From Candidatus Omnitrophota bacterium (lineage in GTDB: Bacteria > Omnitrophota > Gorgyraeia > Tantalellales > Tantalellaceae), in the NCBI GenBank assembly GCA_014728045.1, contig WJMH01000012.1, forward strand, positions 63,239 through 127,238: a DNA stretch of 64,000 bases, given 5' to 3'. Of this stretch, positions 18,663 to 64,000 are shown in pieces (positions within the stretch are counted from its first letter, which is position 1; each line of letters starts with the position of its first letter). Below the pieces are notes generated by a model. That model was not told the origin of the DNA. It ran no database searches and saw only the letters and a program-made list of their open reading frames with translations. Both the position numbers and the translations under genes were made by a program.

Positions 18663-18709
18663 ATTTTTCCAAGCATAAAGCCGATTTCCATCAGGGAGTC
18701 GGCTTTTTT
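18644..18709 (+). repeat. 66-bp direct repeat, copy 1 (tmRNA 3' end plus terminator)
   Basis: Identical to 20207-20272 ('AATCCCGGCACCTCCACCAATTTTTCCAAGCATAAAGCCGATTTCCATCAGGGAGTCGGCTTTTTT'). Confidence 0.85.
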
Positions 18710-18710
18710 A
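18676..18710 (+). terminator. intrinsic terminator of ssrA
   Basis: AAGCCGA-N14-TCGGCTT followed by T6. A second copy sits at 20239-20272 inside the downstream repeat. Confidence 0.6.
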
Positions 18711-33711: not shown

Positions 33712-34002
33712 ATGGGTTTACGCGAGGAACAGAAAAACAAGGTCGAAGCTCAGATCAAGGAATGGGACGCCAAGATCGAAGAACTCAAAGCTAAAGCCGC
33801 ACAGGTCACATCCGATAACAAGATCGAATACTTCAGGCAGATAGAAAAGCTGGAGAACAAGAGGGACGCGGTAAAGAAGGATCTGGAGGAAATGGTCTCT
33901 TCGGGTGAGGACAAGGTGGAGCTGTTCAAGGAAAAACTTGATGCCGCCGTGGAGGAGGCCAAAGGCATACTGGAAGGTATCGCTTCAATGTTCGGCAGGT
34001 GA
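33712..34002 (+). CDS. small coiled-coil protein, unknown
   Basis: Heptad-rich, highly charged 96-aa ORF. Confidence 0.3.
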   Translation: MGLREEQKNKVEAQIKEWDAKIEELKAKAAQVTSDNKIEYFRQIEKLENKRDAVKKDLEEMVSSGEDKVELFKEKLDAAVEEAKGILEGIASMFGR

Positions 34003-34031
34003 GCGCACCGTTCATCATCCGGGGATTTATC

Positions 34032-34655
34032 ATGGTACAAGATAAAAAAAGCACTTTTGGCACAAGATTGCGCAGGTACCTGATCTCAGGTATCGCTACG
34101 GTTCTGCCCCTGTTTATAACCTTTTACATAATAGGGTTCCTATTTCACCTAGCCAACAGGTTCATGGGAAGATATATCAACGATTTTCTCGTGGCGAATT
34201 ACGGATTTTCAATACCGGGACTGGGGTTGTTGCTTCTTGTTGCCGTAACGGTATTTATCGGGGCTTTCGTGAGCAATTTCGTAGGGCGAAAGCTTTTCAG
34301 CCTTGCTGAAAGATTCTTCTACAAAACCCCGGTCGTGGCGAACATATACCCATCGGCCAAGAAACTTTCCGACTTTCTTTTCAAGGAGGAAGAAAAAAAG
34401 AAGTTCAGGAAAGTGGTGCTGGTGGAATATCCCGCACCAGGTTCTTATTCAATAGGATTTCTGACCAATAAGGGCATAGATGAGTTCAACCGCAAGACCG
34501 GCAAAGAGCTGATCACGGTACTGGTGCCGCTATCGCCCATGCCGTATTCCGGGCTGCTTCTTATCTTACCTAAAGAAAAGCTGCTGGAAGTGGATATGAC
34601 GATAAACGAGGCCCTTAAACTGGTCGTTTCCAGCGGAGTTGTTGTCCCTGAATAA
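34032..34655 (+). CDS. DUF502-family membrane protein
   Basis: Two N-terminal TM helices 'ISGIATVLPLFITFYIIGFLF', then a soluble domain. Start chosen at the internal Met of the ORF. Confidence 0.5.
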   Translation: MVQDKKSTFGTRLRRYLISGIATVLPLFITFYIIGFLFHLANRFMGRYINDFLVANYGFSIPGLGLLLLVAVTVFIGAFVSNFVGRKLFSLAERFFYKTPVVANIYPSAKKLSDFLFKEEEKKKFRKVVLVEYPAPGSYSIGFLTNKGIDEFNRKTGKELITVLVPLSPMPYSGLLLILPKEKLLEVDMTINEALKLVVSSGVVVPE

Positions 34656-34687: not shown

Positions 34688-36940
34688 ATGTGGACGAAAT
34701 GGCTTCCATGGAGACTCATAATAAGGATATTGGCCAAGGAGCACGGGTTTATAGACCCGTTCCAGCTTCTCTCGCGTCTTACCACAATGGCGCAGCCTTC
34801 GGAAGTTCTGGCGCCGGTGGAACTCTTGCGTCTTGCGGCAGTACTTCATGCCAGGGGGCTTATAAACAGCCAGGTCATACAGAATAACCTTGACTGGTTA
34901 TGGCCTTACTGGGTGCAGAAACAGTTCGATCCCGCCAGCAGGTCATTTGTCCCGAGAGCTTTTTCCCTTACGCATATCAATCTCACTCACAGGAACTGGA
35001 CAGCCGTAGGTATACCCGGCGTGGAACAGATGCCTATAGTCGACCCCAGGGGGCTGGTAACCCCTCTTTATGACGGGTGGTCCATTGACAGCTGGCTTGT
35101 TGGCGAAGACGGCTACAGGTTAGTCCCTTCAAGAGCGCTCCGGGTGTGCCAGAAGCTTGAAATGCTGGAGAACCTGTCGGTCATGACCGATTCCGTGGAG
35201 GGGAAGAACTACCTCACCCAGAGGGTGGAGGTCGAGAACGAAAAAGGAGAGAACATTTGCAGGATAAGGCTCACTGGCAGCACTGAAAAGGAAGCTTATC
35301 TTGTGGTCTCCTTGAGGCCCTGTAACCCGGAAGGTATAAGCTTTATTCACGAGGTATCCATGATCCCATCGGGATGGCTGGTCAACAAGAAGAACAGGAT
35401 CGTTTTCGAGAACACACCGGACGGCCGGATCTTCTCCGAATATGCCCGGGGGGATGTTTTCAATGATCTATTCAGATGGGACCAGAAGCAAAATATAACC
35501 TGTAATGTGGGGCTCTGCACCGCCGCGGCGCTTTTCAAGATCGAACCCGGCGGTGAAAGAGATATAACCGTGAGCGTGCCTCTGGGAGAGGAAGAGGACA
35601 GATCCGGTAAGGGCGTTGGGATCATCCAGGAAAAATGGAAGGATACTGTCTCGGGGGTCACCAGACTTGAAATTCCCGATGAAAAAATAAAATATCTCTA
35701 TGATGCATCAATAAGGAACCTCATACTGCTTTCTCCTGAGAAGATCTACGCGGGTCCCTTTACCTATAAGCAGTTCTGGTTCAGGGACGCGGCCTACGCT
35801 CTTAACGCCATGCTGTCGGTGAACCTGAAAGAAAGGGCGCGTAATATCATTGACGCTTTTCCAAAGATGCAGACCCCTACGGGTTATTTCAGGTCCCAGG
35901 ACGGCGAATGGGATTCCAACGGGCAGGTCCTCTGGTCGATGAAAAGATACTCGGAACTTACCGGCAGGGCGCCCGAAGAGTCCTGGCGCAGGTCCATAGC
36001 CAGCGCCGTCAGGTGGATACACCGGAAAAGATCATCCAGGAAGCAGGATCCCAAATGCTCGGGGCTTTTCCCCGCGGGTTTCAGCGCCGAACATTTCGGT
36101 CCGAATGATTTTTACTACTGGGACGACTTCTGGGGAGTGGCGGGCCTCGAGGCGGGAGAGCTTATGGCCGGGATGACCGGCAACAAGGCCCTTGCCGAGG
36201 AGTGCCGCGTTGAAAAGGGATCTTTCCTCAAGGCGATAAACGAAAGCATCTCCAAAACGCAGAAGGAAGAGGGCATATCGACCGTTCCGGCCTCTCCCTT
36301 CAGGCGCATGGATTCAAGCGCAGTGGGTACGATGGTCGCGGGTTACCCCCTTAAGATATACGGTCCGCGGGAGAAGGCCATACTGGATACCGCTGATTTC
36401 CTCATTGAAAAGGATTTCTTGAACGGGCTTTTCTTCCATGAAATAGCTCATTCGGGTGTGAACATATATTTGAGCCTGCAGATAGCACAGGTCCTCCTGA
36501 GGGCGGGGGATACAAGGTTCATCGGCATCATGGACGCGGCAGGCGAGATCGCCTCCGACACCGGCCAGTGGCCCGAAGCCATACATCCCTGGACAGGCGG
36601 GGGATGCATGGGTGACGGACAGCATTTATGGGCGGCCGCAGAGTGGGTGATGATGGTACGCAACTGTTTCATAACAGAAGAAAAGGATAAGCTCGTCCTC
36701 TGTTCCGGGATCCGGGACGAATGGCTGGCCGAGGGCAACAGGCTCTTTTTCGGACCCGCTCCGACGCCTTTCGGAGATTGCAGTATAGAGATCGCCTGTT
36801 TCGGGGGAAAGATCAGCGTAGGACTTGACGCGGACTGGCGGGGGAAGAGGCCGGAAGTGGAAGTACGGTTACCCGGCCGGCCCGCCGTGCACATGGGCGA
36901 GGGGAGCGATACCGTCCAGATAGAGGCAGGTGCGGAATGA
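34688..36940 (+). CDS. (alpha/alpha)6-barrel glycoside hydrolase (GDE/GH63/GH15-like)
   Basis: 'FWFRDAAYALNAML', 'YYWDDFWGVAGL', 'QWPEAIHPWTGGGCMGDGQHLWAAAEW' resemble amylo-1,6-glucosidase and GH63 barrels. Confidence 0.5.
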   Translation: MWTKWLPWRLIIRILAKEHGFIDPFQLLSRLTTMAQPSEVLAPVELLRLAAVLHARGLINSQVIQNNLDWLWPYWVQKQFDPASRSFVPRAFSLTHINLTHRNWTAVGIPGVEQMPIVDPRGLVTPLYDGWSIDSWLVGEDGYRLVPSRALRVCQKLEMLENLSVMTDSVEGKNYLTQRVEVENEKGENICRIRLTGSTEKEAYLVVSLRPCNPEGISFIHEVSMIPSGWLVNKKNRIVFENTPDGRIFSEYARGDVFNDLFRWDQKQNITCNVGLCTAAALFKIEPGGERDITVSVPLGEEEDRSGKGVGIIQEKWKDTVSGVTRLEIPDEKIKYLYDASIRNLILLSPEKIYAGPFTYKQFWFRDAAYALNAMLSVNLKERARNIIDAFPKMQTPTGYFRSQDGEWDSNGQVLWSMKRYSELTGRAPEESWRRSIASAVRWIHRKRSSRKQDPKCSGLFPAGFSAEHFGPNDFYYWDDFWGVAGLEAGELMAGMTGNKALAEECRVEKGSFLKAINESISKTQKEEGISTVPASPFRRMDSSAVGTMVAGYPLKIYGPREKAILDTADFLIEKDFLNGLFFHEIAHSGVNIYLSLQIAQVLLRAGDTRFIGIMDAAGEIASDTGQWPEAIHPWTGGGCMGDGQHLWAAAEWVMMVRNCFITEEKDKLVLCSGIRDEWLAEGNRLFFGPAPTPFGDCSIEIACFGGKISVGLDADWRGKRPEVEVRLPGRPAVHMGEGSDTVQIEAGAE

Positions 36941-38226
36941 ACATACTGATGATGACCAATACATACGTGCCCATTGTGGGCGGTATAGAACGGTCAATCG
37001 AGGACTTTTCCTCTGAATACCGGTCCATGGGACATAAGGTTCTCATAGTCGCCCCGAGTTTCAAAAATATGCCTGAAGAGGAAGAGGGGGTCTTTAGGAT
37101 CCCCGCCATACAGAACTTCAACGGAACCGATTTTTCGGTAGAGGTGCCTGTTCCCGGAAGATTGGAAGGTGTGCTTGAGCGGTTCTCTCCTGATATTGTC
37201 CATTCGCACCATCCTTTTCTCGTGGGTGACACGGCCCTGAGGATATCCGCCAATCGCAAGATACCCATAGTTTTTACTCACCACACGCGTTATGAGATGA
37301 ACACACATTATGTGCCCGGTGATTCGGAGGCTCTTAAGAAATTCGTCGTGGAGCTCTCGGTCGGCTATTGCAATCTTTGCGACGAGGTGATAGCGCCCAG
37401 TGAAAGCATAGAAGATCTTTTGAGGGAGCGCGGCGTGGAGACGGAAATAGTTACCATACCAACCGGCATAAAAGTGTCTGAATTCTCCCGAGGTGACGGG
37501 GATGCCTCCAGAAAGAAGCTCGGTATACCGCCTGAAGCCTTCTGTGTCGGATACCTGGGCAGGATAGCCCAGGAGAAGAACATGCTTTATCTGATGGATG
37601 AGGTCGCGCCTTTTCTGAGTGATGAGGCGCGAGCGCATTTTCTGCTCGTGGGTGGCGGGGACCTTGTTGATGAACTGAAGGAGAAGGCTCGCAGCATGGG
37701 TATTTCACAGAGGACGCATTTTGCGGGTTTACTCAAAGGGCAGGATAAGATCGATGCATATCATGCCATGGATGTACTGGTCTTCTCCTCCAAGAGCGAG
37801 ACGCAGGGGTTGGTCCTTGCCGAAGCCATGGCCTCGGGAGTGCCTGTTATAGGGATCGACGCCCCGGGAGTGCGGGAAGTCATAGATTCCGGGAACAACG
37901 GATTTCTGGTGGGGAACGGCGAAAGAGGCTCTTTCGCGGGGAGGCTCAAAGAGTTGCTTGAAATGGATGAGAGAAGCAGGGATTCTTTCCGCAAAGCCGC
38001 TTTTTCAACGGCTGAGAAGTTCGCTTACACGAAAAGCGTCGAAAGGACCCTGGATACATATAAGCGGGCCATAGCGCGTAAACGCCCACGCAGGAATACT
38101 GACCGGAGCACGTGGGCTTCTTCAAAAAGAGCGATACAGAAAGAGATGCAGATAATAACCAACGTGGTCAAATCCGCGGGGGCGATATTCAATCCCAAAA
38201 AGGATGAACATGAAGCCGGAAAGTGA
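36937..38226 (+). CDS. GT4-family glycosyltransferase
   Basis: GT-B fold. 'GGIERSIEDF', C-terminal 'ETQGLVLAEAMASGVPVIG' (E-x7-E region). Confidence 0.75.
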   Translation: MNILMMTNTYVPIVGGIERSIEDFSSEYRSMGHKVLIVAPSFKNMPEEEEGVFRIPAIQNFNGTDFSVEVPVPGRLEGVLERFSPDIVHSHHPFLVGDTALRISANRKIPIVFTHHTRYEMNTHYVPGDSEALKKFVVELSVGYCNLCDEVIAPSESIEDLLRERGVETEIVTIPTGIKVSEFSRGDGDASRKKLGIPPEAFCVGYLGRIAQEKNMLYLMDEVAPFLSDEARAHFLLVGGGDLVDELKEKARSMGISQRTHFAGLLKGQDKIDAYHAMDVLVFSSKSETQGLVLAEAMASGVPVIGIDAPGVREVIDSGNNGFLVGNGERGSFAGRLKELLEMDERSRDSFRKAAFSTAEKFAYTKSVERTLDTYKRAIARKRPRRNTDRSTWASSKRAIQKEMQIITNVVKSAGAIFNPKKDEHEAGK

Positions 38227-39865
38227 CAACGGACAGAAAATACTTAAAGGAAAAAGTATCAGTAAAGGATATTCAACAGGCAGTGCTTTTCTCTACCAGG
38301 ACATTCTTTCAAGGAACCTCCATTATTACAGCATAGAGAAGGAGGATGTCTCCAGGGAGCTCGCCAGGATAAAAGAGGCCTTCGGAAGAGTTCTTGAGGA
38401 CATTGAAAGCCTGGAGAAGAACGTTAAGGACGAGCTTGGCAGGGAACAGGCGGGTATCTTTAAAGCCCACGCTGAGATACTCAAGGACAAGGTTCTGCTC
38501 GAAGACATAGAGAAGGAACTTAAGACCGAACTGGTGAACGCAGAGCACGCCGTAAAGAACGTTTTCCGAAGGTGGGCGAACAAGTTCCGCGCCGCCAAGA
38601 ACGAAATGGTGAAGAGCAAGGCGGAAGATATGGAGGACCTGAGCAGGAAGGTCCTTTGCTCTTTCATGAGATGCGAAGTGAATATCCTGGAGAACATACC
38701 GCCGGGAAGCGTGATAGTGGCCAGGAGGCTACTGCCTTCCGATACGGTCAGGCTAAAAAGAAAGAACGTGAATGGCATAGTGGTCGAACAGGGAAGCCCT
38801 GTTTCCCACAGCGCGATCATAGCCAGATCGCTGGGTATACCCGGGGTCGCCGAGGTAAAGGGTGCTTTGGGGGAGATAAATCGCGGCGATGAACTTATCC
38901 TCGACGGGTATAAAGGTACGGTGATAAAGAACCCAACCGGCAAGGAAAAGACTTTTTACGGGGAAGTGATCGATAAAGAGAAAAAAGTGCAGGAAAAGCT
39001 CATAAAAAAAGCCGGGAATATAGCAAAAACACGCGACGAAAAGCTCATAAAGGTCTATGCTAATATCGCTTCTGTTGAAGATGTCAAGGTGGCGGTGAGC
39101 AGGGGCTGCGACGGTATAGGCCTGTTGAGGATAGAGCAGCTTTACATGTATTCCAAGATACTTCCCGATGAGAAGTATCTGGTCAAGAACCTTTCAAGGA
39201 TACTTAAACCCGCAGAAAATAAGCTCGTCACTCTGAGACTTCTGGATATAGGCGCTGATAAGCAGCTGCCATATATCGACATAGAGGATGAGCCCAGCCC
39301 AGTACTGGGTCTCAGGGGCGTCAGACTGCTTTTAAAGTACAAGAACCTGCTAATGACACAGCTGAAGGCCGCGTATATACTATCCAAGGACCACCAGATA
39401 AGGCTTCTGGTTCCGATAGTCACGTTCCATCAGGAGATAGAAGAGCTCAGGCAGATCGCCACTGAATGCAAGAGGCAGTTGAAGATCCGTTATGGCCTGA
39501 AGCGCAAAGATATCCCCATAGGGGCCATGATAGAGACCCCGGCTGCCGTGGAGAACATAGAAAAGATCGCCGATGTTTCCGATTTTCTGAGCATAGGCAC
39601 CAACGACCTTGTGCAGTACTCGGTGGCGGCGGGGCGGGACAACCCGAACGTGTCGGAGTATTACGAAAAAGGGTCTGACCTTGCAATGAAATACATACAC
39701 AGGGTACGCAGATCAGCGGCGAGGCATGGAATAGAATGCAGCGTCTGCGGGGAGATGGCCAGTGAACTGAAATGGATAAAACCGCTTATCGATGTCGGTA
39801 TCAATGTCCTGAGCGTTTCCCCTTATCTGATACCTTTGATAAAGGACAGTATAAGAAAGATATGA
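38204..39865 (+). CDS. PEP-utilising enzyme, Enzyme I (PtsI)-like paralog without GAF domain
   Basis: N-terminal '[16 protein letters not shown]', phospho-His region '[19 protein letters not shown]', '[11 protein letters not shown]', 'CGEMA'. Architecture matches EI; overlaps the GT4 stop. Confidence 0.7.
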
Positions 39866-47215: not shown

Positions 47216-48625
47216 ATGTCATTGGAAAATAATATTAATCTTATAAGAAAAATAGAGGATCACCTTTCCGCACAAGTACCTATTCGCCTGGGCGTCAATA
47301 AAAAGAACGAACTTGCGCGGCTTGTCTATGAAATATGCCGCGGGCGTTCAGTGGAGCCGGAACAGGTGTTCATCCGTATAGACCTTGGCGGCATGGTCGA
47401 GAAAGGTAAGAACGGCCTCTTTCGCAGGATAAAAAAAGCTCTTCTCAAGTTGAGATATCCCTCTATGAGAGAGGGGGACGACCCGCATATCATGCCTTTT
47501 ACCGTCGATAAACCGGTGCCGGAGCCGGAGGCCTGGGATTTCAGGATCCTGCCGGAGAAAATATACGTGGAAAGGTCGGTCGAGAGCGTCGAATGGACCG
47601 GGTCTTTTCTCTCGCGCTTCCCGGAGGCAAGCGTGGATATTATAGACGATCCCGGGCAGATCCTGTCATCTTTCACCGGCAAATCCCAGGTCGAGCTTTA
47701 TAACGAAAGGTCCCGGCGGATCCTGGTCACGAAGAATAGATCCGGATACGTGAAACCCTGTCCCTGTACAAAGAACGTCCACAGGTGCGGTTACAACATA
47801 CTCAATCTGGGCTTCGGCTGCCCCATGGACTGTTCGTACTGTTACCTGCAGATGTACAGCAACTCACCATGGCTTGTGTTCCAGGCGAATGTTGATGATT
47901 ATCGCGCGCCGATAGAGGATTTCGATGCAAGGGTCGGCCGCAGGACGCGCATAGGTACGGGTGAATTCACCGATTCTCTCTATCTGGATAAGTATACCTC
48001 GTACTCCTCGTACCTCATACCCTTGTTCAGGCAGATGAGGAACCTTGTTCTTGAACTTAAGACGAAAACGGTCGATATCGAAAACGTTCTCAGGCACGAG
48101 CCCCATGATAACGTGGTGGTCTCCTGGTCCATCAACACAAGGAAGATGGCCCGGAAATACGAGAAAGGCGCCAGTTCGATCGATGAAAGAATACGGGCCG
48201 CTTCACGCGCCGCCGCAAGAGGGTTCAAAGTAGGTTTCCATTTTGACCCGATAATCTATTACGAAGGGTGGGAGGATGAGTACAGGCAAACCGTAGAAGA
48301 ACTGTTCTCGAACAGGGATATCCTAGAGAACACCGAATGGATGAGCCTGGGCACTTTACGTTATACTCCGGGTCTGAAGCAGGTCGCCGAGCAGAGGTTC
48401 GGGGAGAACCGGATGTATTACGCCGGGGAATTCTTTCTCGGCGCGGACGGAAAACTCAGGTATCCCGCCAGGCTCAGGAGCCTCATGTATAATAAAATGA
48501 TAGAATGGATAAGGGCTTATCCGACATCCGCCTGGATCTACCTGTGCATGGAGCCTGATGAGATATGGGGGGATACTCTGCTGGAGAAAAGCGATTATTC
48601 TTATGGTGCCAAGATAAGGGGGTAA
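47216..48625 (+). CDS. radical SAM protein of the SplB / DNA-photolyase-like (COG1533) type with about 100-aa N-terminal extension
   Basis: 'GFGCPMDCSYCYLQ' (CxxxCxxC with the YCY signature of the SplB family) preceded by 'CPCTKNVHRCGYN'. Confidence 0.5.
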   Translation: MSLENNINLIRKIEDHLSAQVPIRLGVNKKNELARLVYEICRGRSVEPEQVFIRIDLGGMVEKGKNGLFRRIKKALLKLRYPSMREGDDPHIMPFTVDKPVPEPEAWDFRILPEKIYVERSVESVEWTGSFLSRFPEASVDIIDDPGQILSSFTGKSQVELYNERSRRILVTKNRSGYVKPCPCTKNVHRCGYNILNLGFGCPMDCSYCYLQMYSNSPWLVFQANVDDYRAPIEDFDARVGRRTRIGTGEFTDSLYLDKYTSYSSYLIPLFRQMRNLVLELKTKTVDIENVLRHEPHDNVVVSWSINTRKMARKYEKGASSIDERIRAASRAAARGFKVGFHFDPIIYYEGWEDEYRQTVEELFSNRDILENTEWMSLGTLRYTPGLKQVAEQRFGENRMYYAGEFFLGADGKLRYPARLRSLMYNKMIEWIRAYPTSAWIYLCMEPDEIWGDTLLEKSDYSYGAKIRG

Positions 48626-48627
48626 AA

Positions 48628-49332
48628 ATGCGTTCAGTGAAGATATTGTTATCGGTCATGTTTTTTGCGGTCAATTGTTCTTTGGCTATCTCCCAGCCGG
48701 CCAGTCCGGAACCCGGAGAGATCGTGAAACTTCCTGAGCCCAGTCATGAAGGCAACGTGTCGGTGGAGGAGGCGATATACCAGCGCAAGTCAACAAGGAA
48801 TTTCTCGGACAGGGCGCTCACGCTAGATGAGGTTTCGCAGCTTCTCTGGGCCGCCGGGGGGAGTACCCATGATGGTCTGACCGGCCCGACCAGGTCCTAT
48901 CCTTCCGCCGGCGCTATTTATCCTCTTGAGATATACATTGTCGTAGGGGACGTGGTCGGTCTCAATAAGGGCATATATTCGTATGACTGGAGGAGACACC
49001 AGCTCGAACTGGTTAAAAAAGGCGATCTTCGCGATGAACTTTACAAGGCGGCTTTGTCCCAGAGAATGGTGCGCACGGCACCTCTTACGCTGGTGGTCAC
49101 TGCCCAGCATGCCAAGACCGCAAGAAGGTACGGCCAGCGAGGCGTCAACAGGTATGTGAGCATGGATACCGGTCACCTCGGACAGAATGTCCACCTGCAG
49201 GCGGAAAGCATGGGTCTGGGAACGGTTATGGTGGGCGCTTTCGTGGACAAAGAGGTAAGCAGGGTCCTGGGGACCGAAGAAGAGATGCCGGTTTACATTA
49301 TGCCGGTGGGGTATCCCTTGAAAAGATCATGA
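48628..49332 (+). CDS. SagB/ThcOx-type nitroreductase-family dehydrogenase with signal peptide
   Basis: Signal peptide 'MRSVKILLSVMFFAVNCSLAIS'. 'STRNFSDRALTLDEVSQLLWAAGG' and 'YPSAGAIYPLEIYIVVGD' match the SagB-type dehydrogenase domain. Confidence 0.55.
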   Translation: MRSVKILLSVMFFAVNCSLAISQPASPEPGEIVKLPEPSHEGNVSVEEAIYQRKSTRNFSDRALTLDEVSQLLWAAGGSTHDGLTGPTRSYPSAGAIYPLEIYIVVGDVVGLNKGIYSYDWRRHQLELVKKGDLRDELYKAALSQRMVRTAPLTLVVTAQHAKTARRYGQRGVNRYVSMDTGHLGQNVHLQAESMGLGTVMVGAFVDKEVSRVLGTEEEMPVYIMPVGYPLKRS

Positions 49333-50435
49333 TAAGAGCCGATCTTAAGCGCATAGACGCCGCTATAAGCGAACTGGCAAGGGAAATAGATTTTTATCCC
49401 CTGCTCACGCCCGTCAACCGTCTGGAGGAACAGGAGAAGTTCTTCTTGAACCTGGCGAGGGAGAAGGAATATAATCCCCGGTTCATTTATAAAAAGAAGG
49501 ATTTCACCGGAGAGAAGGACACTCTCCGGAGGATGCGCGATAGCCTGAGGGAAGAGGATCTTCTGGAGGGCATCTTCCGCCGCAAGATCGATTTCATGCT
49601 GACCGAGCAGGAGCTATTGGATTGCGGGGACTGGTCTTTCGGCGAAGTGGCGAAAAAGCTGCACGGCACCCCCGAAGAGGGCTGCATCGAAAAAGCGGCG
49701 GCCATACTGGAAAATAGCCTTCAAAGTGATTACGCCTTTCCCGAGGAAAGCGTTACCCCGGAAGAGATGGCGGGGGAACTCAGCGAATATATGCGCGGGA
49801 AAGGCCTTGAATGGAAGGTCAGGATAACCGATAAGATCATACCCAAGATAACCGTATCGGGCAAGGACAGGACGCTGTATATTAACTCCCGGATAAGATA
49901 TACCCGGGCCGAGGTGCAGAGATTAAAAGTGCATGAGATAGAGGTTCATGTATACAGGGGCGCTAACGGAGCTGTTCAGCCCTACAGGATATTCACCGAA
50001 GGCCTTGCCGGCTACAACGAGACCGAAGAGGGCCTGGCCGTTATGATGGAAGATGTATCGGGTTGTCTTGAAGTGGATACGCGCCAGATGAAGCTCTATG
50101 CCGGACGCTCTCTGTCTACGCATCTTTGCATGAGGGGCTCGTTCTACGAGGCTTACAGGGGTCTGGAAAGGTATTTTCCGGGTTATATGGCTTACCGTCT
50201 TGTCGAAAGGGCCAAAAGGGGCATTTCGGACACTTCGCTGAAAGGATGTTTGACGAAAGGATCACATTATATCAGCGGATGGATAAAACTTCGCAAGTAT
50301 GTTGAACAACACAAGGATTTGAGTATAATCTATGTTGGGAAGGTCAGAATGGAAGACGCCGGATCGTTAGAAGAACTTTTGCGTGAGAATCTGCTGAAAC
50401 CGGCGCAGTATTTCCCGGATTTCAGATGCGGATAA
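49329..50435 (+). CDS. DUF1704 / 'QEGLA-motif' family protein (MATCAP-like putative metallopeptidase)
   Basis: 'TEEGLAVMMEDVSG' (QEGLA-type motif) and 'VHEIEVHVYRG' (putative metal-binding H-E-x-x-x-H). Confidence 0.55.
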   Translation: MIRADLKRIDAAISELAREIDFYPLLTPVNRLEEQEKFFLNLAREKEYNPRFIYKKKDFTGEKDTLRRMRDSLREEDLLEGIFRRKIDFMLTEQELLDCGDWSFGEVAKKLHGTPEEGCIEKAAAILENSLQSDYAFPEESVTPEEMAGELSEYMRGKGLEWKVRITDKIIPKITVSGKDRTLYINSRIRYTRAEVQRLKVHEIEVHVYRGANGAVQPYRIFTEGLAGYNETEEGLAVMMEDVSGCLEVDTRQMKLYAGRSLSTHLCMRGSFYEAYRGLERYFPGYMAYRLVERAKRGISDTSLKGCLTKGSHYISGWIKLRKYVEQHKDLSIIYVGKVRMEDAGSLEELLRENLLKPAQYFPDFRCG

Positions 50436-51895
50436 GAGTTCCTGAAATGAAGAAAATAAGCGAATATCTTATTGAGAAATACGGCAAGTGGGGGTGGCTC
50501 GGGCAAAGAGCGCACGACGCCTGCGGGATAAACCGCATCCTTCCGCTGGATCTTATCATATGTTGTGATCACGGCAGGGAACTGCCCGTTTATTTCAGGC
50601 CGGAGGATGTTTATTCCGTGGAGGGCGGGACTGGTATACGCAGGGACTGGTCGAACGAGGACCTTAATGACAGCCTCAAGGGGGATCTTGGTCGCAGGAT
50701 AAGACGCAGGTTGGTGACGCAAGGCGGGAAAGTTAATCTGATCTGTTACAGGTCGGTAAGACGTCTTGAGAATGGAAAAGGCAGGTACAGAAATAATCCG
50801 CGCCTTCTCGCGGTCGCCCAGAGGATAAAAAAACGTTTCGACAACAAAGCTCTTCTGCACAGGAGCTTGCCCGGGCTTTCTCTTCCGCAGATACCCGGCA
50901 TCGTGGACAGGATCAGCAGGGCGGATTTCAAGAGGCTTCGAGAGGACCTCGAGCTTCCTTTCGTTATACAGTTCCCATACGGCTCCAGCGGGCACTATAC
51001 CTTTTTGATAAAAAGGCCGAAAGACCTGAAGAGCCTGGTGGAGCATCATCCTGAAGCCACCGCTCTCATCAGAAAGTATATTGACGGGTTTTCACTGAAC
51101 GTCAACGCTGTCGTACTTTCTTCCGGGAACGGCCCCAGAGTAATGTGTTCAGCCCCTTCGGTGCAGATGACAGGTATCCCCGAGTGCAGCAATTCCCCGG
51201 CGTCCTTCTGCGGGAACGATTATTCCGCGGCAAGGGACCTTGACCCTGCTCTTGTGCGTCAGGTCAAGAGCTATATGGAAACGATCGGCCGGTGGATGGC
51301 TTCTTCCGGGTTCAGGGGTCTTTTCGGCATGGATTTCGTGGTAAAGGACGGGACGGCATATCCGGTCGAGATAAACCCCAGGTTCCAGAACTCGACCTCT
51401 CTTTTGACGGTGCTTCATTCTTTATCAGCTAATCGAAAAGGAACGCTTTTCCTGTTGCACATAGCCGAATTCCTGCAGGATAAAGACGTTCTCCTAAGGC
51501 GTTATATAAAAGATTTTCCCGCAGAGGAACTCATGCGTCCGGTCGAGGGAAGCCAGCTTATCATACATAACCGTCTGGAAAAGAGACTGGTGACCGGTGA
51601 TCTCTTCCCGGGTGTCTACCGCCGGCAAAGAAAGGGCCTTAAGCACCTCAAGCAAGGCGCCTCACTGTGGGACTGCTCAGGGCCGGATGAATTTCTGCTG
51701 ACTTCGGGGGTGCCGGCTCCTTCACTTAGGGTAGAACCCAACGCGCCGGTCCTGAAGATACAGTCCCGGGGGAACCTGCTGGATATTTCCAATAAGAGGC
51801 GTCTTACTCCCGAGACCGCGAAAATAGTATCGCTAGTATACGAAAGGCTTTCGTTGAAAAAACCGGGCCGGGTAAAAACCGCCGAGCCCGCATGA
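50426..51895 (+). CDS. ATP-grasp-fold ligase (RimK / alpha-L-glutamate-ligase-like)
   Basis: 'FVIQFPYGSSGHYTFLI' flexible-loop region, 'GLFGMDFVVKDGTAYPVEINPRFQNS' (ATP-grasp E-x-N catalytic block). Confidence 0.55.
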   Translation: MRIRVPEMKKISEYLIEKYGKWGWLGQRAHDACGINRILPLDLIICCDHGRELPVYFRPEDVYSVEGGTGIRRDWSNEDLNDSLKGDLGRRIRRRLVTQGGKVNLICYRSVRRLENGKGRYRNNPRLLAVAQRIKKRFDNKALLHRSLPGLSLPQIPGIVDRISRADFKRLREDLELPFVIQFPYGSSGHYTFLIKRPKDLKSLVEHHPEATALIRKYIDGFSLNVNAVVLSSGNGPRVMCSAPSVQMTGIPECSNSPASFCGNDYSAARDLDPALVRQVKSYMETIGRWMASSGFRGLFGMDFVVKDGTAYPVEINPRFQNSTSLLTVLHSLSANRKGTLFLLHIAEFLQDKDVLLRRYIKDFPAEELMRPVEGSQLIIHNRLEKRLVTGDLFPGVYRRQRKGLKHLKQGASLWDCSGPDEFLLTSGVPAPSLRVEPNAPVLKIQSRGNLLDISNKRRLTPETAKIVSLVYERLSLKKPGRVKTAEPA

Positions 51896-51917: not shown

Positions 51918-53495
51918 ATGATTGAACGTGACCCCAGATACTACGTCACAGGTTATGACGGGAGAGATCCCTATAAAGCCCCTTTTTACATCAACGCGTT
52001 AAGTTTTGACGGGGAGGAAGGGGGTTTCAACTGTTCCCTTATAGAGAAGTTCAACGAATTCATCAGGGGACATCGGATATCTTCATCCTGCCGCCTTGAA
52101 GGTTCTTTCAAAAAAGATTCCGTAAAGGTGCCTTCCAGGATAGTTGTGGTCAACGCTTCTCACGATGACCTGCCCACCTCTTATGAGACGGCCAGGATCT
52201 TTAATGATTTCTGCAGGGAGAAAGGCTATGCCGCCGAGGCCGTTGTGGTGAACACCCGGGAACACCTGCTTAAGGAGGTCAATGTCGATCCTGAGGAGAC
52301 TTTACTGGTCAGCCAGTGTGTTGACAAGAATGTATACAACGTTGCTCTGGCAGAAGAGCTGGCCCAGAAAGGTACGGTCACCGTCCCCGGCAGGGTCACC
52401 GCCCCGGGAAGCGTGTTCTCCGATAAGGACAGCACCTATCGGTTGCTTTCCGAGGAGGGAAGCGATTGGAGCAAGGTAGCAAGATATGTAAAGGTGCCCG
52501 TGGAGGGAAAGAGCGTCGAAGAGGTTGTTGATGAACTTTTCCAGGCGGTGGACGAGCTTGAACAGTTGACCGGGGATATTACATTCTTCGTTAAGCCTCA
52601 TGAAGGCGGCGGCGGACTGGGGGGTTTTCGCATAACCAAGGTGAAGGAGGGGTACATAATACCGGATCTATCCAAGGTTTCCGGGGACCTCTCCGAAATA
52701 CACCCGACCTTCATTGATTTCGACCTTTCCAGCGAGGCCAAATTAAGGGAGCTTTTGTGGATATACAGGCTTTTCGCAGGCAATGATAAAATGTCGGAAA
52801 ACTATTTGAAGGTTAAACTTCCCGTTATGAACAAGGACCAGACCGAAGCTATCGGTATCCTGAAAGAGTACCTCGCCGGCAGCGAGATAAAAAGGCACAA
52901 AAAACTTGCCGGTATGGTGCTCAGTCCGGAGAAAGCCCGCAGCACGCTGGTGGAGGCGATAAAGATCTTCGAAAAGAAGTTCTACAGAAGATATGTGCCG
53001 CTTGTTAACGAGCATATAGATTTCGGATTATGGGGATTGAGGGCCCATTACAGGCTTTCCACCGAAGGGCCCAGACTGGAGACGATGTATCACCGAATTT
53101 TCCAGCTCGGGTTCACCGAGGAAGGCCTGGGGTACGTGGGGTCGGATAATATCTCTAATAAACAGACCGGGGATCTTGAGATCACCAGGCTGGGACCGGT
53201 TAACCCGATAATGCTCGAGGCCATAGGAGGAGAGCAGGCGCTTTTTGATTCGCTGTTAAAGGGCGCAGAAGCTTTGGCCGAACTCAATGATCTTCTTGCG
53301 GATGAGGAGAAAGGATCCGTTCCGCTCAGGCTGCAGTTGGACCTGGCGACGATATCCCGCCGTATCGGAGAGGGCAATGCCGATACCGCACGGGGATTAT
53401 GCCTGGCCTCGCGCTGGTCTGATTTCGTGCGTAACGCCCGCCAGTGGCTTGAGGACAGCCTTGTGTATTATACAAAAGTAAAGGAGTCCGGTTGA
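51918..53495 (+). CDS. second ATP-grasp-like protein (tentative)
   Basis: 'ITFFVKPHEGGGGLGGFRI' Gly-rich loop reminiscent of ATP-grasp. The remainder is divergent. Confidence 0.35.
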   Translation: MIERDPRYYVTGYDGRDPYKAPFYINALSFDGEEGGFNCSLIEKFNEFIRGHRISSSCRLEGSFKKDSVKVPSRIVVVNASHDDLPTSYETARIFNDFCREKGYAAEAVVVNTREHLLKEVNVDPEETLLVSQCVDKNVYNVALAEELAQKGTVTVPGRVTAPGSVFSDKDSTYRLLSEEGSDWSKVARYVKVPVEGKSVEEVVDELFQAVDELEQLTGDITFFVKPHEGGGGLGGFRITKVKEGYIIPDLSKVSGDLSEIHPTFIDFDLSSEAKLRELLWIYRLFAGNDKMSENYLKVKLPVMNKDQTEAIGILKEYLAGSEIKRHKKLAGMVLSPEKARSTLVEAIKIFEKKFYRRYVPLVNEHIDFGLWGLRAHYRLSTEGPRLETMYHRIFQLGFTEEGLGYVGSDNISNKQTGDLEITRLGPVNPIMLEAIGGEQALFDSLLKGAEALAELNDLLADEEKGSVPLRLQLDLATISRRIGEGNADTARGLCLASRWSDFVRNARQWLEDSLVYYTKVKESG

Positions 53496-57970: not shown

Positions 57971-58054
57971 GGGTTGAAGATACGTTATTAATATTATATT
58001 TATACTTGAATTTTTTTTTGACCCTGTGATATAATACGCTTCTAAAATAACGGT

Positions 58055-58130
58055 GCCCGCATAGCTCAGCTGGTAGAGCAACTGACTCTTAATCAGTGGG
58101 TCCAAGGTTCGAGCCCTTGTGCGGGTACCA
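58055..58130 (+). tRNA. tRNA-Lys (anticodon CTT)
   Basis: Anticodon loop CTCTTAA, T-loop TTCGAGC, CCA. Confidence 0.85.
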
Positions 58131-58336: not shown

Positions 58337-58810
58337 ATGAACATTATAGATTTACTCTCAAAAGACGCGATATCCGTGGACCTCCAATCGACCGAAAAGG
58401 AGGAGATAATCTCGGAACTGGTAGAACTGCTCGTTTCTTCAGGTTCCATCAAGAAACCGGACAAGGATCTGGTCCTGAAAAAACTTCAGGAAAGGGAGAT
58501 GCTCGGCTCTACGGGTATAGGAAAAGGGGTTGCTATTCCGCATGCCAAGTGCGCCAAGGTAAAGAAAATGGTAGCCGCTCTGGGGATCTCGAAGGAAGGA
58601 ACGGACTTCAAATCCCTGGACGGGGAAGCGACACATATTTTCTTTCTCCTTATAGCGCCGGGCGAGACTCCCGGTCCCCATCTTAAGGCGCTGGCCAAGA
58701 TATCACGTCTTTTGGACGACAAGTTCGTCAGGGACAGGCTGCTTTCGGCTTCATCGCCGCAGGAGATATTGAAGATAGTCAAAGACGAAGAACTTAAAAA
58801 AGTAGCCTGA
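58337..58810 (+). CDS. ptsN: PTS EIIA(Ntr)-type nitrogen regulatory protein
   Basis: 'GVAIPHAKC' active-site His region and EIIA fructose/Ntr-type fold length. Confidence 0.75.
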   Translation: MNIIDLLSKDAISVDLQSTEKEEIISELVELLVSSGSIKKPDKDLVLKKLQEREMLGSTGIGKGVAIPHAKCAKVKKMVAALGISKEGTDFKSLDGEATHIFFLLIAPGETPGPHLKALAKISRLLDDKFVRDRLLSASSPQEILKIVKDEELKKVA

Positions 58811-62097: not shown

Positions 62098-62376
62098 TTG
62101 ATGGAGATCAGAAAAGAAATAGTCGTTAAGAACAAGACCGGGCTTCACGCCAGGCCCGCTGCCTTGTTCGTTCAGATAGCTAATAAATACCAGAGCGACA
62201 TAACGATAATCAAGGATGACCAGGAGGTCAACGGGAAATCCATAATGGGTATACTTATGCTCGCCGCGGAAAAGGGTTCAAAGGTGACCATAGTGGCCAA
62301 TGGTGAGGATGCTGAGCATGCCGTTAAGGAGTTGGAAGAGATACTGCTTAACGACATGGAGCCTGAAAAATTCTGA
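62098..62376 (+). CDS. ptsH: phosphocarrier protein HPr
   Basis: '[13 protein letters not shown]' with active His, 92 aa. Confidence 0.85.
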
Positions 62377-62410: not shown

Positions 62411-64000
62411 GATGGCTGATAATAAGAAGTCTTCCAAGAAGAAACAGATCCAGCTTAAGGGGATCCCGGCAGCGCCCGGTATCGCGATAGGAAAAGCTCA
62501 TGTTTTCGGCACGGAGGACATGATACCCCAGGAACGCAAGATATCCGAATCAGAGGTATCCGGCGAGATAGACAGGTTCAAGCGGGCTCTTGCCGAGACC
62601 AGGAAAGAGGTCCTTGCCATTGAAAGAAGGATCTCCAAGGAAATGGGGGTAGAGCACGGGAGTATATTCAGGGCGCATCTTCTGGTTCTCGAGGACAGCG
62701 TGCTCGTGCAGGAGGTCATCTCCCGCCTTAAAAAGAGGAAAAAGAATATCGAGACCATCTTCGCGGAAGTGCTCAATAAGTACATAAGCGTTCTGTCTTC
62801 GGCCAAGGACGAATACCTCAGGGACAGGGTAAGCGATATAACCGATGTGGGAAAAAGGATACTTCGCAACCTGATCGGAGCCGAAGAAAGGAGCATGGAA
62901 GGGCTTCACGATAAATCCATTATAATCTCCTATGACCTTTCTCCTTCGGATACTGCAATGATGCACAAAGGCCGGGTGATAGGCTTCGCTACCGATATTG
63001 GCGGCAGGACCTCACATACCGCCATCATGGCGAAATCCCTGGAGATACCCGCAGTGGTCGGGCTGGAATCCATTACCGACGTGGTCAAGAACGGCGACCA
63101 GGTGATACTTGACGGTACGCACGGTGTGGTCATAGTCAACCCCACCAAGAGATTTCTTGACAAATACCATAAGGAGAAGAAGAAGCTCGAGAATCTTGAA
63201 AAGGAACTCGTCGAGCTTAAGACCCTCCCCAGCGAAACGACCGATAACAAGAAGGTCACCGTTGCGGGTAATATAGAGCTTCCCGAGGACGTGGCAAGTG
63301 TCATCTCCCACGGCGCCGAAGGCATAGGTCTTTACAGGACCGAATATTTCTATATGAACCGGCGGGATCTGCCCAGCGAAGAGGAACAGTTCAACGCCTA
63401 CAAATCCGTGGCCCTCAGGATAAAACCCCATTGTGTCGTTATAAGGACCCTTGACCTGGGCGGGGATAAGTTCCTTTCGCAGCTTGAGGTCCCGAGGGAG
63501 ATGAACCCGTTCTTGGGGTGGAGGGCGATACGCTTCTGCCTCGCCAGACCTGATATCTTCAAAGCCCAGCTGAGGGCGATACTCAGGGCCTCGGCGTTCG
63601 GTAACCTTAAGCTGATGTATCCGATGATATCCGGTGTCGGGGAGCTCAGGCAGGCAAATATGCTCCTTTCGGAGGTTAAGGAAGATCTGCGCAAGGAAAA
63701 GGTCAAGTTCAATAAGGATATCCCGGTCGGGGCGATGATAGAAGTGCCCTCGGCTGCCATTACCAGTGACGTGCTGGCCAAGGAAGTCGATTTTTTCAGT
63801 ATCGGCACCAACGATCTGATCCAGTATTCACTGGCTGTTGACAGGGTGAACGAAAAGATAGCCTATCTTTATGAGCCCACTCATCCGGCTGTTCTTAACC
63901 TCATAAAGCAGGTGATAGACAACGGGCACAGTGAGAACATACCCGTGGCCCTGTGCGGTGAGATGGCGGGGGATATTTCGCTTACCATGATACTGCTCGG
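62411..64000 (+). CDS. ptsI: PTS Enzyme I (3'-truncated by window end)
   Basis: '[16 protein letters not shown]', '[21 protein letters not shown]', '[18 protein letters not shown]', 'CGEMAG'. Confidence 0.85.

What the first reader, a model, noticed from the sequence alone, without database searches (positions are those of the whole stretch)
38204..39865. Second, divergent Enzyme I paralog coupled to a glycoside hydrolase and a GT4 glycosyltransferase
- **Two Enzyme I genes.** The canonical ptsH-ptsI pair lies at 62098-64000. A second full-length EI-like gene (38204-39865) retains the phospho-His ('[18 protein letters not shown]') and the PEP-binding '[10 protein letters not shown]' and 'CGEMA' blocks, but lacks a GAF domain, so it is not a PtsP/EI-Ntr type.
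- **Coupling.** It overlaps the stop of a GT4 glycosyltransferase, which in turn overlaps the stop of an (alpha/alpha)6 glycoside hydrolase (34688-36940).
- **What it suggests.** PEP-dependent phosphotransfer coupled directly to a glycosyltransferase/hydrolase pair, rather than to PTS permeases (none are present in this window), is unusual. It could point to PEP-driven regulation or phosphorylation linked to synthesis and turnover of a glycoside, for example a glucosyl- or mannosyl-glycerate-type compatible solute, given the GH63/GDE-like hydrolase.
Basis: partly seen in the sequence, partly recalled or inferred. Interest (0 to 1): 0.5.

Follow-up and report, generated by a model that had tools for sequence, protein, structure and literature searches.

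The report
Divergent Enzyme I coupled to glycosyltransferase
This Omnitrophota genome carries, besides its ordinary HPr-linked Enzyme I, a second intact Enzyme I from a deep and apparently undescribed branch of the family that is never found next to HPr, is repeatedly translationally coupled to a GT4 glycosyltransferase, and in sister lineages is fused to a c-di-GMP synthase, which suggests a PEP-sensing regulator of a sugar-containing cell product rather than a sugar-uptake enzyme.

Summary
ORF 38204-39865 is a full-length, GAF-less Enzyme I (EI) with every catalytic residue intact. It overlaps the stop of a GT4 gene, which overlaps the stop of a 750-aa gene that models as a GH15-like (alpha/alpha)6 enzyme. 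A canonical HPr-EI pair lies at 62098-64000.

New findings:
- The paralog belongs to a monophyletic clade ('EI-X'; 100/100 NJ bootstraps, stem 0.31). It is about 30% identical to PtsI, PtsP, FryA and PtsA.
- No HPr gene occurs in 23 EI-X loci, against 49 of 72 canonical EI loci.
- The same GT4 orthogroup lies within one gene upstream in 8 of 21 EI-X contexts, against 0 of 72 canonical ones. These cases span three separate GT4 and EI-X lineages, and five junctions overlap by 4-23 nt.
- Sister EI-X proteins carry an N-terminal helical domain and/or an intact GGDEF domain.

The linkage is facultative. Most GH15-like/GT4 modules have no EI, and deep EI-X members are orphans.

Best reading: a regulatory PEP-sensing EI branch, analogous to EI-Ntr, tied to a glycoconjugate module. 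The phospho-acceptor and the module's substrate are unknown. The GH63/glucosylglycerate idea is not supported. It is a new variant of a known kind, of moderate interest.

The parts
38204..39865 (+). EI-X: a full-length Enzyme I paralog (553 aa; the likelier start is ATG 38210) with N-terminal HPr-binding-type, phospho-His and PEP-binding domains
   Evidence: ORF. Pfam and NCBIfam (TIGR01417 436 bits, above the 341.7 cut-off). Best PDB match is S. carnosus EI 2hro, 274 bits. Catalytic residues are conserved. The clade has 100/100 bootstrap support.
38795..38848 (+). Phospho-histidine loop [18 protein letters not shown] (His202, equivalent to E. coli His189). This is the clade-typical GSxxSH loop in place of the canonical GGxTSH.
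36937..38226 (+). GT4 retaining glycosyltransferase (429 aa) with a conserved C-terminal amphipathic tail. Its stop overlaps the EI-X start by 17-23 nt.
   Evidence: Pfam Glyco_transf_4 and Glycos_transf_1. Nearest PDB relatives are MshA, BshA, archaeal GlgA and PimA/B. The tail is conserved across the whole orthogroup. Junction.
34688..36940 (+). GH15-like (alpha/alpha)6 glycoside hydrolase/phosphorylase-fold protein (750 aa) from a large uncharacterised family. ATGA overlap with the GT4 gene.
33999..34655 (+). DUF502 membrane protein, 32 nt upstream of the GH-like gene. It is conserved at this position in the window clade and stays next to EI-X in L089, where GH/GT4 are elsewhere.
   Evidence: Pfam. 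tblastn. Contexts.
62098..62376 (+). HPr, the only HPr-like gene in the window (His15 and Ser46 motifs present) and the candidate phospho-acceptor for both EIs.
   Evidence: 126 bits on the HPr profile.
62412..64000 (+). Canonical Enzyme I (cut by the window end), immediately downstream of HPr.
   Evidence: TIGR01417 620 bits. It falls in the HPr-linked clade with E. coli PtsI.
58337..58810 (+). EIIA of the PTS_EIIA_2 (Ntr/fructose) type, part of the canonical regulatory PTS cluster GH130-EIIA-YvcK/CofD-GH57-HPr-EI.

Best explanation
The gene encodes an active Enzyme I of a deep, separate branch of the EI family, called EI-X here.

Shown:
- It has the full three-domain EI architecture and the complete PEP/Mg2+/phospho-His catalytic set.
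- It forms a strongly supported clade apart from PtsI, PtsP and the multidomain EIs.
- Unlike ordinary EI, it is never encoded next to HPr.
- In Omnitrophota and relatives it is repeatedly placed directly after a GT4 glycosyltransferase, usually overlapping it. That GT4 belongs to a widespread GH15-like/GT4 glycoconjugate module.
- In sister lineages it is fused to an N-terminal helical domain and an intact GGDEF diguanylate cyclase.

Inferred:
- EI-X autophosphorylates from PEP on His202, so its phosphorylation state reports the PEP:pyruvate ratio.
- Through the genome's HPr, an unlinked HPr-like carrier, or direct contact, it tunes the GT4/GH15-like module, balancing synthesis against turnover of an alpha-glycoside or membrane glycoconjugate.
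- In the fusion proteins it tunes c-di-GMP synthesis instead.

On this reading it works like EI-Ntr: a regulatory PTS branch in an organism without PTS permeases, but with a different input and output wiring.
For: - Domain architecture and curated-model score.
- Catalytic residues (E. coli H189, R296, R332, K340, R358, E431, N454, D455, R465, C502) are at least 96% conserved across 126 EI-X sequences.
- Phylogeny: EI-X is monophyletic in 100/100 bootstraps with a stem of 0.31. Identity is about 42% within the clade and 31% to canonical EI. E. coli PtsP, FryA and PtsA are 33-40% identical to PtsI but only 25-30% to EI-X.
- The HPr profile finds 0 hits in 23 EI-X loci (289 kb) against 49 of 72 canonical loci.
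- GT4 lies within one gene upstream in the window, L001, L003, L082, L084, L085, L087 and L172, against 0 of 72 canonical loci. Called gene coordinates overlap by 4-23 nt in the window, L082, L084, L085 and L172. In L087 an EEP gene sits in between.
- EI-linked GT4s lie in three separate GT4 lineages.
- L172 has one GT4 copy paired with EI-X and another copy in the GH module.
- Fusions: 27 of the top 120 hits have N-terminal extensions, and 9 have a GG[DE]EF motif plus an RxxD I-site.
- No PTS permease was seen in the window.
- Precedent for regulatory PTS branches controlling exopolysaccharide output, GlmS and LpxD: PMC13104625, PMC5024086, PMC4635465.
Against: - Everything about function rests on gene context. 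No phosphotransfer, interaction or expression data exist.
- The linkage is facultative. Only 2 of 80 GH15-like loci carry EI-X. L002, whose GT4 is sister to an EI-linked one, lacks it. L081, L089, L170, L171 and L173 lack an upstream GT4, and the deep members L090-L097 are orphans.
- Nearly all genes in this region are on the + strand, so co-orientation alone says little.
- The eight linked cases are not phylogenetically independent. There are at most three independent events, so p = 2e-6 is inflated.
- The window protein itself has no sensory domain.
- L-LDH, FBP aldolase and a PGP/PpaX-like HAD also recur nearby, so EI-X may simply sit in a central-metabolism neighbourhood.
- The trees are NJ on simple distances, not ML.
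Confidence: 0.5

Rival explanations
1. EI-X is an ordinary, functionally redundant PtsI duplicate that feeds the same HPr. Its position after the GT4 is inherited synteny with no functional meaning.
For: - It passes the generic EI model TIGR01417 and keeps the HPr-binding subdomain.
- Only one HPr is visible in the window.
- The linkage is facultative.
- The region is almost uniformly + strand.
Against: - Long stem, 100/100 bootstrap support and only about 30% identity to every known EI type.
- 11 clade-fixed signature positions, including the phospho-His loop.
- Never HPr-adjacent, whereas 49 of 72 canonical EI loci have an HPr-profile hit.
- The adjacency recurs in three separate GT4 lineages, with overlapping stop/start codons.
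- Signalling-domain fusions are restricted to this clade.
Confidence: 0.2
2. EI-X has a metabolic role. It is the PEP-dependent phosphoryl donor of a short chain that phosphorylates a small molecule or a lipid-linked sugar made by the GT4, analogous to EI/HPr-DhaM-DhaL-DhaK. This would yield a phosphorylated glycoside or phosphoglycolipid that HAD or phosphodiesterase enzymes later process.
For: - Phosphate-handling genes recur in the neighbourhood: a PGP/PpaX-like HAD and a Phosphodiest+EEP protein between GT4 and the GGDEF-EI in L087.
- The tight overlaps with GT4 suggest stoichiometric co-production.
- The DhaM N-terminal region is itself EI-like (NCBIfam hit NF008478).
Against: - No EIIA, EIIB, DhaM or DhaL-like acceptor domain was seen in any EI-X locus.
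- The N-terminal subdomain is the protein (HPr)-binding type.
- The GGDEF fusions point to signalling rather than catalysis of a pathway step.
Confidence: 0.12
3. One reading: the GH + GT4 pair makes and degrades a soluble compatible solute (a glucosyl-/mannosyl-glycerate type or another alpha-glucoside such as trehalose), and EI-X regulates it according to PEP supply.
For: - The window clade lacks the lipid-type partner genes and has only DUF502 and sometimes a HAD phosphatase.
- GH15 includes trehalases and glucoamylases, and there is a faint hit to archaeal GH15 trehalase TreH2.
- In L081, EI-X sits next to an OtsA-like GT20 instead of GT4.
- The GT4's nearest solved relatives, MshA and BshA, use small-molecule acceptors.
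Against: - No GpgS/MpgS-type (GT81/GT78/GT55) synthase is present.
- Across the family the GH is often fused to a GtrA membrane domain and flanked by an ACP+PlsC acyltransferase, patatin, a phosphodiesterase/EEP protein and DUF3108.
- The GT4 carries a conserved amphipathic C-terminal tail typical of membrane association.
Confidence: 0.13

Closest known systems
EI-Ntr (PtsP) of the nitrogen-related regulatory PTS
   Same: A second, paralogous Enzyme I with purely regulatory use of PEP-dependent phosphorylation, found in organisms or branches without PTS permeases. The family accepts N-terminal sensory domains. Its downstream effects include envelope and glycan synthesis (exopolysaccharide, GlmS, LpxD; PMC13104625, PMC5024086, PMC4635465).
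   Different: There is no GAF domain. The PtsP model scores 299 bits against a cut-off of 583. EI-X is 28% identical to E. coli PtsP and lies in a separate clade. It is not linked to rpoN/ptsO/ptsN-type genes. The sensory add-ons in this clade are a novel helical domain and GGDEF, not GAF.
Canonical Enzyme I (PtsI; groups T and R of Comas et al. 2008, PMC2405797)
   Same: The same three domains, the same catalytic residues, and a score above the TIGR01417 cut-off. The best PDB matches are staphylococcal and E. coli EI.
   Different: About 30% identity and a separate clade on a long stem. It has 11 fixed signature differences, including GGxTSH to GSxxSH and RTLD to RLLD. It is never adjacent to ptsH. 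Its gene partner is a GT4 instead.
Multiphosphoryl transfer proteins with EI domains (E. coli FryA, PtsA)
   Same: EI domains embedded in larger multidomain proteins, which shows that EI tolerates fusions.
   Different: Those are fused to HPr and EIIA domains and sit beside EIIB/EIIC permease genes. EI-X fusions carry GGDEF or a helical domain, and no PTS domain is nearby. Identity is 25-27%.
GH15 glucoamylase / glucodextranase / trehalase family (for the 750-aa partner)
   Different: There is no sequence-level match to the Pfam or NCBIfam GH15 models. The protein has an extra C-terminal beta-sandwich and an N-terminal helical region. GtrA fusions are frequent. Activity and substrate are unknown, and GH65/GH94 phosphorylases match almost as well.
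PTS-c-di-GMP cross-talk in Vibrio (EI and EIIA-Glc effects on biofilm; PMC3509428)
   Same: It connects PTS phosphorylation state with biofilm and c-di-GMP-type outputs.
   Different: There the link works through separate proteins. Here, in sister lineages, EI and a GGDEF cyclase form one polypeptide. No such fusion was found in the searched literature.

Membership tests
PTS Enzyme I (PEP-protein phosphotransferase, TIGR01417) | Three-domain architecture: N-terminal HPr-binding helical subdomain, phospho-His swivel domain, and C-terminal PEP-binding TIM barrel | tested here: met
   PF05524 (15-137), PF00391 (165-238), PF02896 (272-552). Full-length alignment to S. carnosus EI 2hro.
PTS Enzyme I (PEP-protein phosphotransferase, TIGR01417) | Score above the curated family cut-off | tested here: met
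   436.3 bits against a cut-off of 341.7. The window's canonical EI scores 619.8 even though truncated.
PTS Enzyme I (PEP-protein phosphotransferase, TIGR01417) | Phospho-His and PEP/Mg2+ catalytic residues (E. coli H189, R296, R332, K340, R358, E431, N454, D455, R465, C502) | tested here: met
   All are present in the window protein and at least 96% conserved in the EI-X clade.
PTS Enzyme I (PEP-protein phosphotransferase, TIGR01417) | PEP-dependent autophosphorylation and phosphotransfer to HPr | not testable with these tools
   This needs biochemistry. Only one HPr gene is visible, 22 kb away beside the canonical EI.
PTS Enzyme I (PEP-protein phosphotransferase, TIGR01417) | Typical genomic association with ptsH (common but not strictly defining) | tested here: not met
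   0 of 23 EI-X loci have an HPr-profile hit, against 49 of 72 canonical loci.
EI-Ntr (PtsP) | N-terminal GAF domain | tested here: not met
   No GAF in Pfam, and the EI N-domain starts at residue 15.
EI-Ntr (PtsP) | Membership of the PtsP sequence family or clade | tested here: not met
   NF008283 scores 298.9 against a cut-off of 583. Identity to E. coli PtsP is 28%, and PtsP falls outside the EI-X clade.
Multidomain EI (FryA/PtsA-type MTP) | Fused HPr and/or EIIA domains, with adjacent EIIB/EIIC genes | tested here: not met
   No such domains. Identity to FryA and PtsA is 25-27%, and both fall outside the clade.
GH15 (for ORF 34688-36940) | beta-sandwich + (alpha/alpha)6 catalytic barrel fold | tested here: met
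GH15 (for ORF 34688-36940) | Match to the GH15 sequence family models | tested here: not met
   No Pfam hit. There is only a faint 14.8-bit NCBIfam hit to archaeal trehalase TreH2, whose cut-off is 1000.
GH15 (for ORF 34688-36940) | Catalytic general acid/base glutamate pair in structurally equivalent positions | tested here: inconclusive
   Invariant acidic residues exist (D367, E407, D409, E468, D479, E630, D643, E652), but no residue-level superposition was possible.
GT4 glycosyltransferase (for ORF 36937-38226) | GT-B fold with Glyco_transf_4 N-domain and Glycos_transf_1 C-domain | tested here: met
   PF13439 114.6 bits and PF00534 110 bits. PDB relatives are MshA, BshA and PimA. No equivalog-level NCBIfam model passes, so donor and acceptor are unknown.

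The most novel reading that the evidence does not exclude
EI-X is a fourth major lineage of Enzyme I that has left the classical EI-HPr-EII chain. It uses PEP-dependent autophosphorylation as a metabolic sensor wired directly, by physical contact or a non-HPr acceptor, to a GT4 enzyme of an uncharacterised GH15-like/GT4 glycoconjugate module, and in fused forms to a diguanylate cyclase. That would be a one-protein link from glycolytic state to c-di-GMP and cell-surface or storage glycan synthesis in Omnitrophota and neighbouring candidate phyla.
Probability: 0.25. Interest if true: 0.75.

Novelty: new variant of a known kind. Interest (0 to 1): 0.55.

Why it matters
- **For PTS research.** Enzyme I is one of the best-studied bacterial signalling enzymes, and its known branches (PtsI, PtsP, MTP-type) all feed HPr-like carriers. 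A deep, catalytically intact branch that has dropped the HPr linkage, pairs with a glycosyltransferase and fuses to GGDEF would widen the known outputs of PEP sensing. It would also give a concrete, testable entry into regulation in Omnitrophota, a phylum that is largely uncultured.
- **For glycobiology.** The work flags a very large family (more than 4,500 homologues) of GH15-like proteins with no annotation. They form a conserved module with GT4, acyltransferase, GtrA and patatin genes, and they also occur in cultured Proteobacteria, where the biochemistry could be done.

Tried and rejected
- **Metagenome scan with the single EI-X sequence.** No confirmed relative. It was useful as a control set but not for counting EI-X loci.
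- **Exact-sequence look-ups of P0022 and P0221.** Not on record, so no context was obtained for a 52%-identity EI-X or for the Marinobacter fonticola GH15-like gene.
- **Homologue search with the fusion N-terminal domain.** No hits. Its profile against the PDB and Foldseek with its AF2 model also gave no significant match, so the domain stays unassigned.
- **The 87-aa ORF directly upstream of EI-X in L089 as a possible cryptic HPr.** Rejected: no GxHARPA motif, no Pfam hit and no HPr-profile hit.
- **The GT4 C-terminal tail as an EI-specific docking or phospho-acceptor element.** Rejected: the tail is conserved in all GT4 orthologues whether or not they are EI-linked.
- **The recurring HAD as a beta-phosphoglucomutase, which would have suggested a GH65-type phosphorylase system.** Rejected: the best hits are phosphoglycolate phosphatase and PpaX, both below threshold, and the beta-PGM models score only 28-56 bits.
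- **Promoter and terminator scan of 33-41.5 kb.** Counts were not above shuffled expectation, so the operon limits are not defined.
- **Literature searches for EI-GGDEF fusions, Omnitrophota PTS and EI paralog phylogeny.** No description of this clade or fusion was found. The library lacks most subscription journals, so the absence is not proof.
Full report
**1. The observation**

- The first junction is an ATGA overlap.
- At the second junction the GT4 stop is TGA 38224-38226 and the EI gene starts at ATG 38204. ATG 38210 is more plausible because AAGGA lies six bases upstream. The overlap is therefore 17-23 nt.
- The three quoted motifs are present at aa 198-215, 463-472 and 515-519.
- Pfam finds the three EI domains and no GAF. 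NCBIfam TIGR01417 gives 436 bits against a cut-off of 341.7, while the PtsP model gives 299 against 583.
- A canonical HPr (62098-62376) is followed by a second EI starting at 62412 and cut by the window end. The two EIs are 31% identical.
- Upstream of HPr lie GH57, a CofD/YvcK-like gene, an EIIA of the PTS_EIIA_2 type and GH130.
- No PTS permease appeared among the larger ORFs of the window. Sugar use looks ABC-based, with GH113 x2, a ROK-family protein and a solute-binding protein.
- The window matches a Candidatus Omnitrophota MAG at 100% identity (P0001).

**2. What the EI paralog is**

A homologue search returned 3,716 hits. I built an NJ tree on 540 columns from these sequences:
- the top 120 homologues;
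- ordinary EI genes recovered from 80 metagenome loci;
- both window EIs;
- E. coli PtsI and PtsP, and later FryA and PtsA.

All homologues recovered with the paralog, plus eight metagenome EIs and a second EI from locus L172, form one clade of 126 tips. The clade is separated from everything else in 100/100 bootstraps on a stem of 0.31 substitutions per site. Mean identity is about 42% within each clade and 31% between them. E. coli PtsP, FryA and PtsA are 33-40% identical to PtsI but only 25-30% identical to this clade. I call the clade EI-X.

The catalytic set (E. coli H189, R296, R332, K340, R358, E431, N454, D455, R465, C502) is at least 96% conserved in EI-X. Eleven positions are fixed differently from canonical EI, including the phospho-His loop (GGxTSH to GSxxSH) and RTLD to RLLD. 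So this is an enzyme under selection for PEP-dependent autophosphorylation, not a decaying copy.

The published EI phylogeny (Comas et al. 2008, PMC2405797) recognises groups Ntr, R, T and the multidomain groups, and describes nothing like this clade. I found no other description.

**3. Gene context**

Ordinary EI genes sit by HPr. An HPr profile built from 45 sequences hits 49 of 72 canonical EI loci, but none of 23 EI-X loci (289 kb) and nothing in window 25-48 kb.

Exact-sequence look-ups and tblastn show the following contexts (percentages are identity to the window EI):

| EI-X member | Locus | Context |
|---|---|---|
| Window | - | DUF502-GH-GT4-EI |
| L001, L003 | genome loci | GH-GT4-EI (DUF502 also upstream in L003) |
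| P0005, 71% | L082 | HAD-DUF502-GH-GT4-EI |
| P0018, 62% | L084 | GH-x-GT4-EI |
| P0021, 56% | L085 | HAD-DUF502-GH-GT4-EI |
| P0037, 44%, GGDEF-EI fusion | L087 | GH-x-GT4-phosphodiesterase/EEP-[GGDEF-EI] |
| P0050, 47% | L172 | GT4-EI, with a separate patatin-GtrA-GH-acyltransferase-GT4 module 4.5 kb downstream and a second EI-X upstream |
| P0008, 69% | L081 | No GT4; transposase and group II intron RT upstream, OtsA-like GT20 downstream |
| P0058, 45% | L089 | No GH/GT4; keeps DUF502 and HAD |
| P0030 | L170 | No upstream GT4 |
| P0038 | L171 | No upstream GT4 |
| P0069 | L173 | No upstream GT4 |
| Deep members, 35-39% | L090-L097 | Orphans in varied contexts |

That gives 8 of 21 EI-X contexts with this GT4 orthogroup within one gene upstream, against 0 of 72 canonical EI loci (Fisher p = 2e-6, uncorrected for shared ancestry). 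In the GT4 tree the EI-linked copies fall in three separate lineages. Stop/start overlaps of 4-23 nt recur in the window, L082, L084, L085 and L172. This argues for a real functional tie, most directly between GT4 and EI-X.

The tie is facultative, however. Of 80 species-representative loci carrying the GH homologue, about 65 keep GH followed by GT4, but only L001 and L003 have the EI. L002, whose GT4 is sister to an EI-linked one, lacks it.

**4. Signalling-domain fusions**

Among the top 120 EI-X hits:
- 93 are plain EI;
- 11 carry an N-terminal helical domain of about 130 aa;
- 9 carry a GGDEF domain with an intact GG[DE]EF motif and RxxD I-site, 6 of them together with the helical domain;
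- 7 carry other extensions, including degenerate GGDEF.

The helical domain models as an all-alpha bundle (pTM 0.71) with no significant PDB fold or sequence match. Repeated acquisition of signalling domains at the N-terminus parallels the GAF domain of PtsP and supports a regulatory reading. The window protein itself has no such domain.

**5. The partner genes**

*The 750-aa 'GH'.*
- It has no Pfam, NCBIfam or PDB sequence match.
- It has more than 4,530 homologues, all labelled hypothetical. They occur in Omnitrophota, Planctomycetota and Proteobacteria, including cultured Marinobacter fonticola, and many carry an N-terminal GtrA membrane domain.
- Its AlphaFold model (pLDDT 81.8, pTM 0.86) shows a beta-sandwich, an (alpha/alpha)6 barrel and a C-terminal beta-sandwich.
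- Foldseek matches GH94, GH65, GH15, GH116, GH95 and GH78 enzymes.
- Invariant WFRD, GEWD and WPE motifs are consistent with an active carbohydrate site.
- It is therefore a GH15-like hydrolase or phosphorylase of unknown specificity.

*The GT4.* It is a generic retaining GT-B enzyme. The nearest solved relatives are MshA, BshA, archaeal GlgA and PimA/B, and no equivalog model passes. It has a conserved amphipathic C-terminal tail that is not specific to EI-linked copies.

*Other partners.* In most loci the pair travels with a PP-binding + PlsC-type acyltransferase (between GH and GT4 in about 40 loci), patatin, GtrA, a phosphodiesterase + EEP protein and DUF3108. This points to a membrane-linked glycoconjugate. 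The window clade lacks these genes and has only DUF502 and sometimes a PGP/PpaX-like HAD. A true L-LDH and an FBP aldolase also recur nearby.

The substrate is unresolved. A soluble alpha-glucoside cannot be excluded, but glucosyl- or mannosylglycerate has no specific support.

**6. Most likely mechanism**

Shown: an intact EI of a separate clade that is uncoupled from ptsH, is recurrently and tightly coupled to a GT4, and is prone to signalling-domain fusions, in a genome whose visible PTS is regulatory only.

Inferred:
- EI-X autophosphorylates on His202 from PEP, so it reads the PEP:pyruvate ratio.
- It passes the signal through HPr, an unlinked carrier or direct contact, and so adjusts the activity of the GT4/GH15-like module. 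In the fusions it adjusts c-di-GMP synthesis instead.

Regulatory PTS branches are already known to control exopolysaccharide output, GlmS and LpxD (PMC13104625, PMC5024086, PMC4635465). EI-X would therefore work like EI-Ntr without being a member of that family.

Confidence by step:
- High (about 0.9) that EI-X is a distinct, active EI clade.
- Moderate (about 0.5) that the GT4 coupling is functional.
- Low (about 0.25) for any specific route of signal transfer.

**7. Caveats**
- Trees are NJ with simple distance correction.
- Taxon sampling of 'canonical' EI comes from a pattern-based metagenome scan plus E. coli paralogs.
- Contexts extend only 7-10 kb either side.
- The linked cases represent about three independent lineages.
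- The region is almost uniformly + strand.
- No experimental data exist.
- The literature library omits most subscription journals.

**8. Verdict**

The finding is a new variant of a known kind: a new EI branch with unusual wiring. Interest is moderate, at 0.55. If the direct EI-to-GT4 or EI-to-GGDEF coupling were demonstrated, it would be considerably more interesting.

Noticed in passing
window 57020-64000: The canonical PTS genes are also interleaved with carbohydrate-active genes: GH130 (57020-57970), EIIA_2/Ntr-type (58337-58810), CofD/YvcK-like (58830-60080), GH57 amylase/4-alpha-glucanotransferase-like (60088-62097), HPr (with both the His15 and Ser46 motifs) and EI. It looks like a regulatory PTS tied to glucan or mannan metabolism.
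   Followed up: partly
window 1804-8799: Two GH113 genes, a ROK-family protein and an ABC solute-binding protein. This suggests mannan-type sugar use through ABC uptake rather than PTS permeases.
   Followed up: partly
window 8989-11715; 20352-21980; 51918-53495: Three large ORFs (908, 542 and 525 aa) with no Pfam hit at all.
   Followed up: no
window 18001-20000: GC content drops to 0.39 from about 0.50 elsewhere, around an AAA_14/DUF4143 ATPase gene (18948-20156). This may be an inserted element.
   Followed up: no
window 34688-36940 and loci L001-L080: The GH15-like protein belongs to a family of more than 4,530 homologues, all annotated hypothetical and without a Pfam model. Many are fused to an N-terminal GtrA domain. 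They form a conserved module with a PP-binding+PlsC acyltransferase, GT4, patatin, a phosphodiesterase/EEP protein and DUF3108. The family is also present in Proteobacteria, including cultured Marinobacter fonticola (P0221).
   Followed up: partly
L087 7001-9583; L170 9001-11598; L171 9001-11205; L173 9001-11181: Sister EI-X proteins are fused to an N-terminal all-alpha domain of about 130 aa (no PDB fold match) and/or a GGDEF domain. GGEEF and the RxxD I-site are intact in L087 and L170 and degenerate in L171. I found no published description of an EI-GGDEF fusion.
   Followed up: partly
L172 2656-4365, 7739-10776 and 13635-19776: One Omnitrophota contig (JADGBB010000020.1) carries two EI-X paralogs 4.6 kb apart and two copies of the GT4 orthologue. 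One copy overlaps the EI-X start and the other lies in a patatin-GtrA-GH-acyltransferase-GT4 module.
   Followed up: partly
L081 2935-10575: In one close relative (69% identity) EI-X has lost the GH/GT4 context. It is flanked by a transposase and a group II intron reverse transcriptase upstream, and by an OtsA-like GT20 (trehalose-phosphate-synthase-like, below threshold) downstream.
   Followed up: partly
L085 1085-2734; L172 11712-13370; L082 1749-2393; L089 5954-6691: A true L-lactate dehydrogenase and a PGP/PpaX-like HAD phosphatase recur near EI-X. PpaX is the pyrophosphatase of the Bacillus hprK operon, but the match here is below the curated cut-off.
   Followed up: partly
window 47216-51895: A spore-photoproduct-lyase-like radical SAM protein (47216-48625) and an ATP-grasp protein (50426-51895) lie in one co-directional run with unannotated ORFs.
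   Followed up: no
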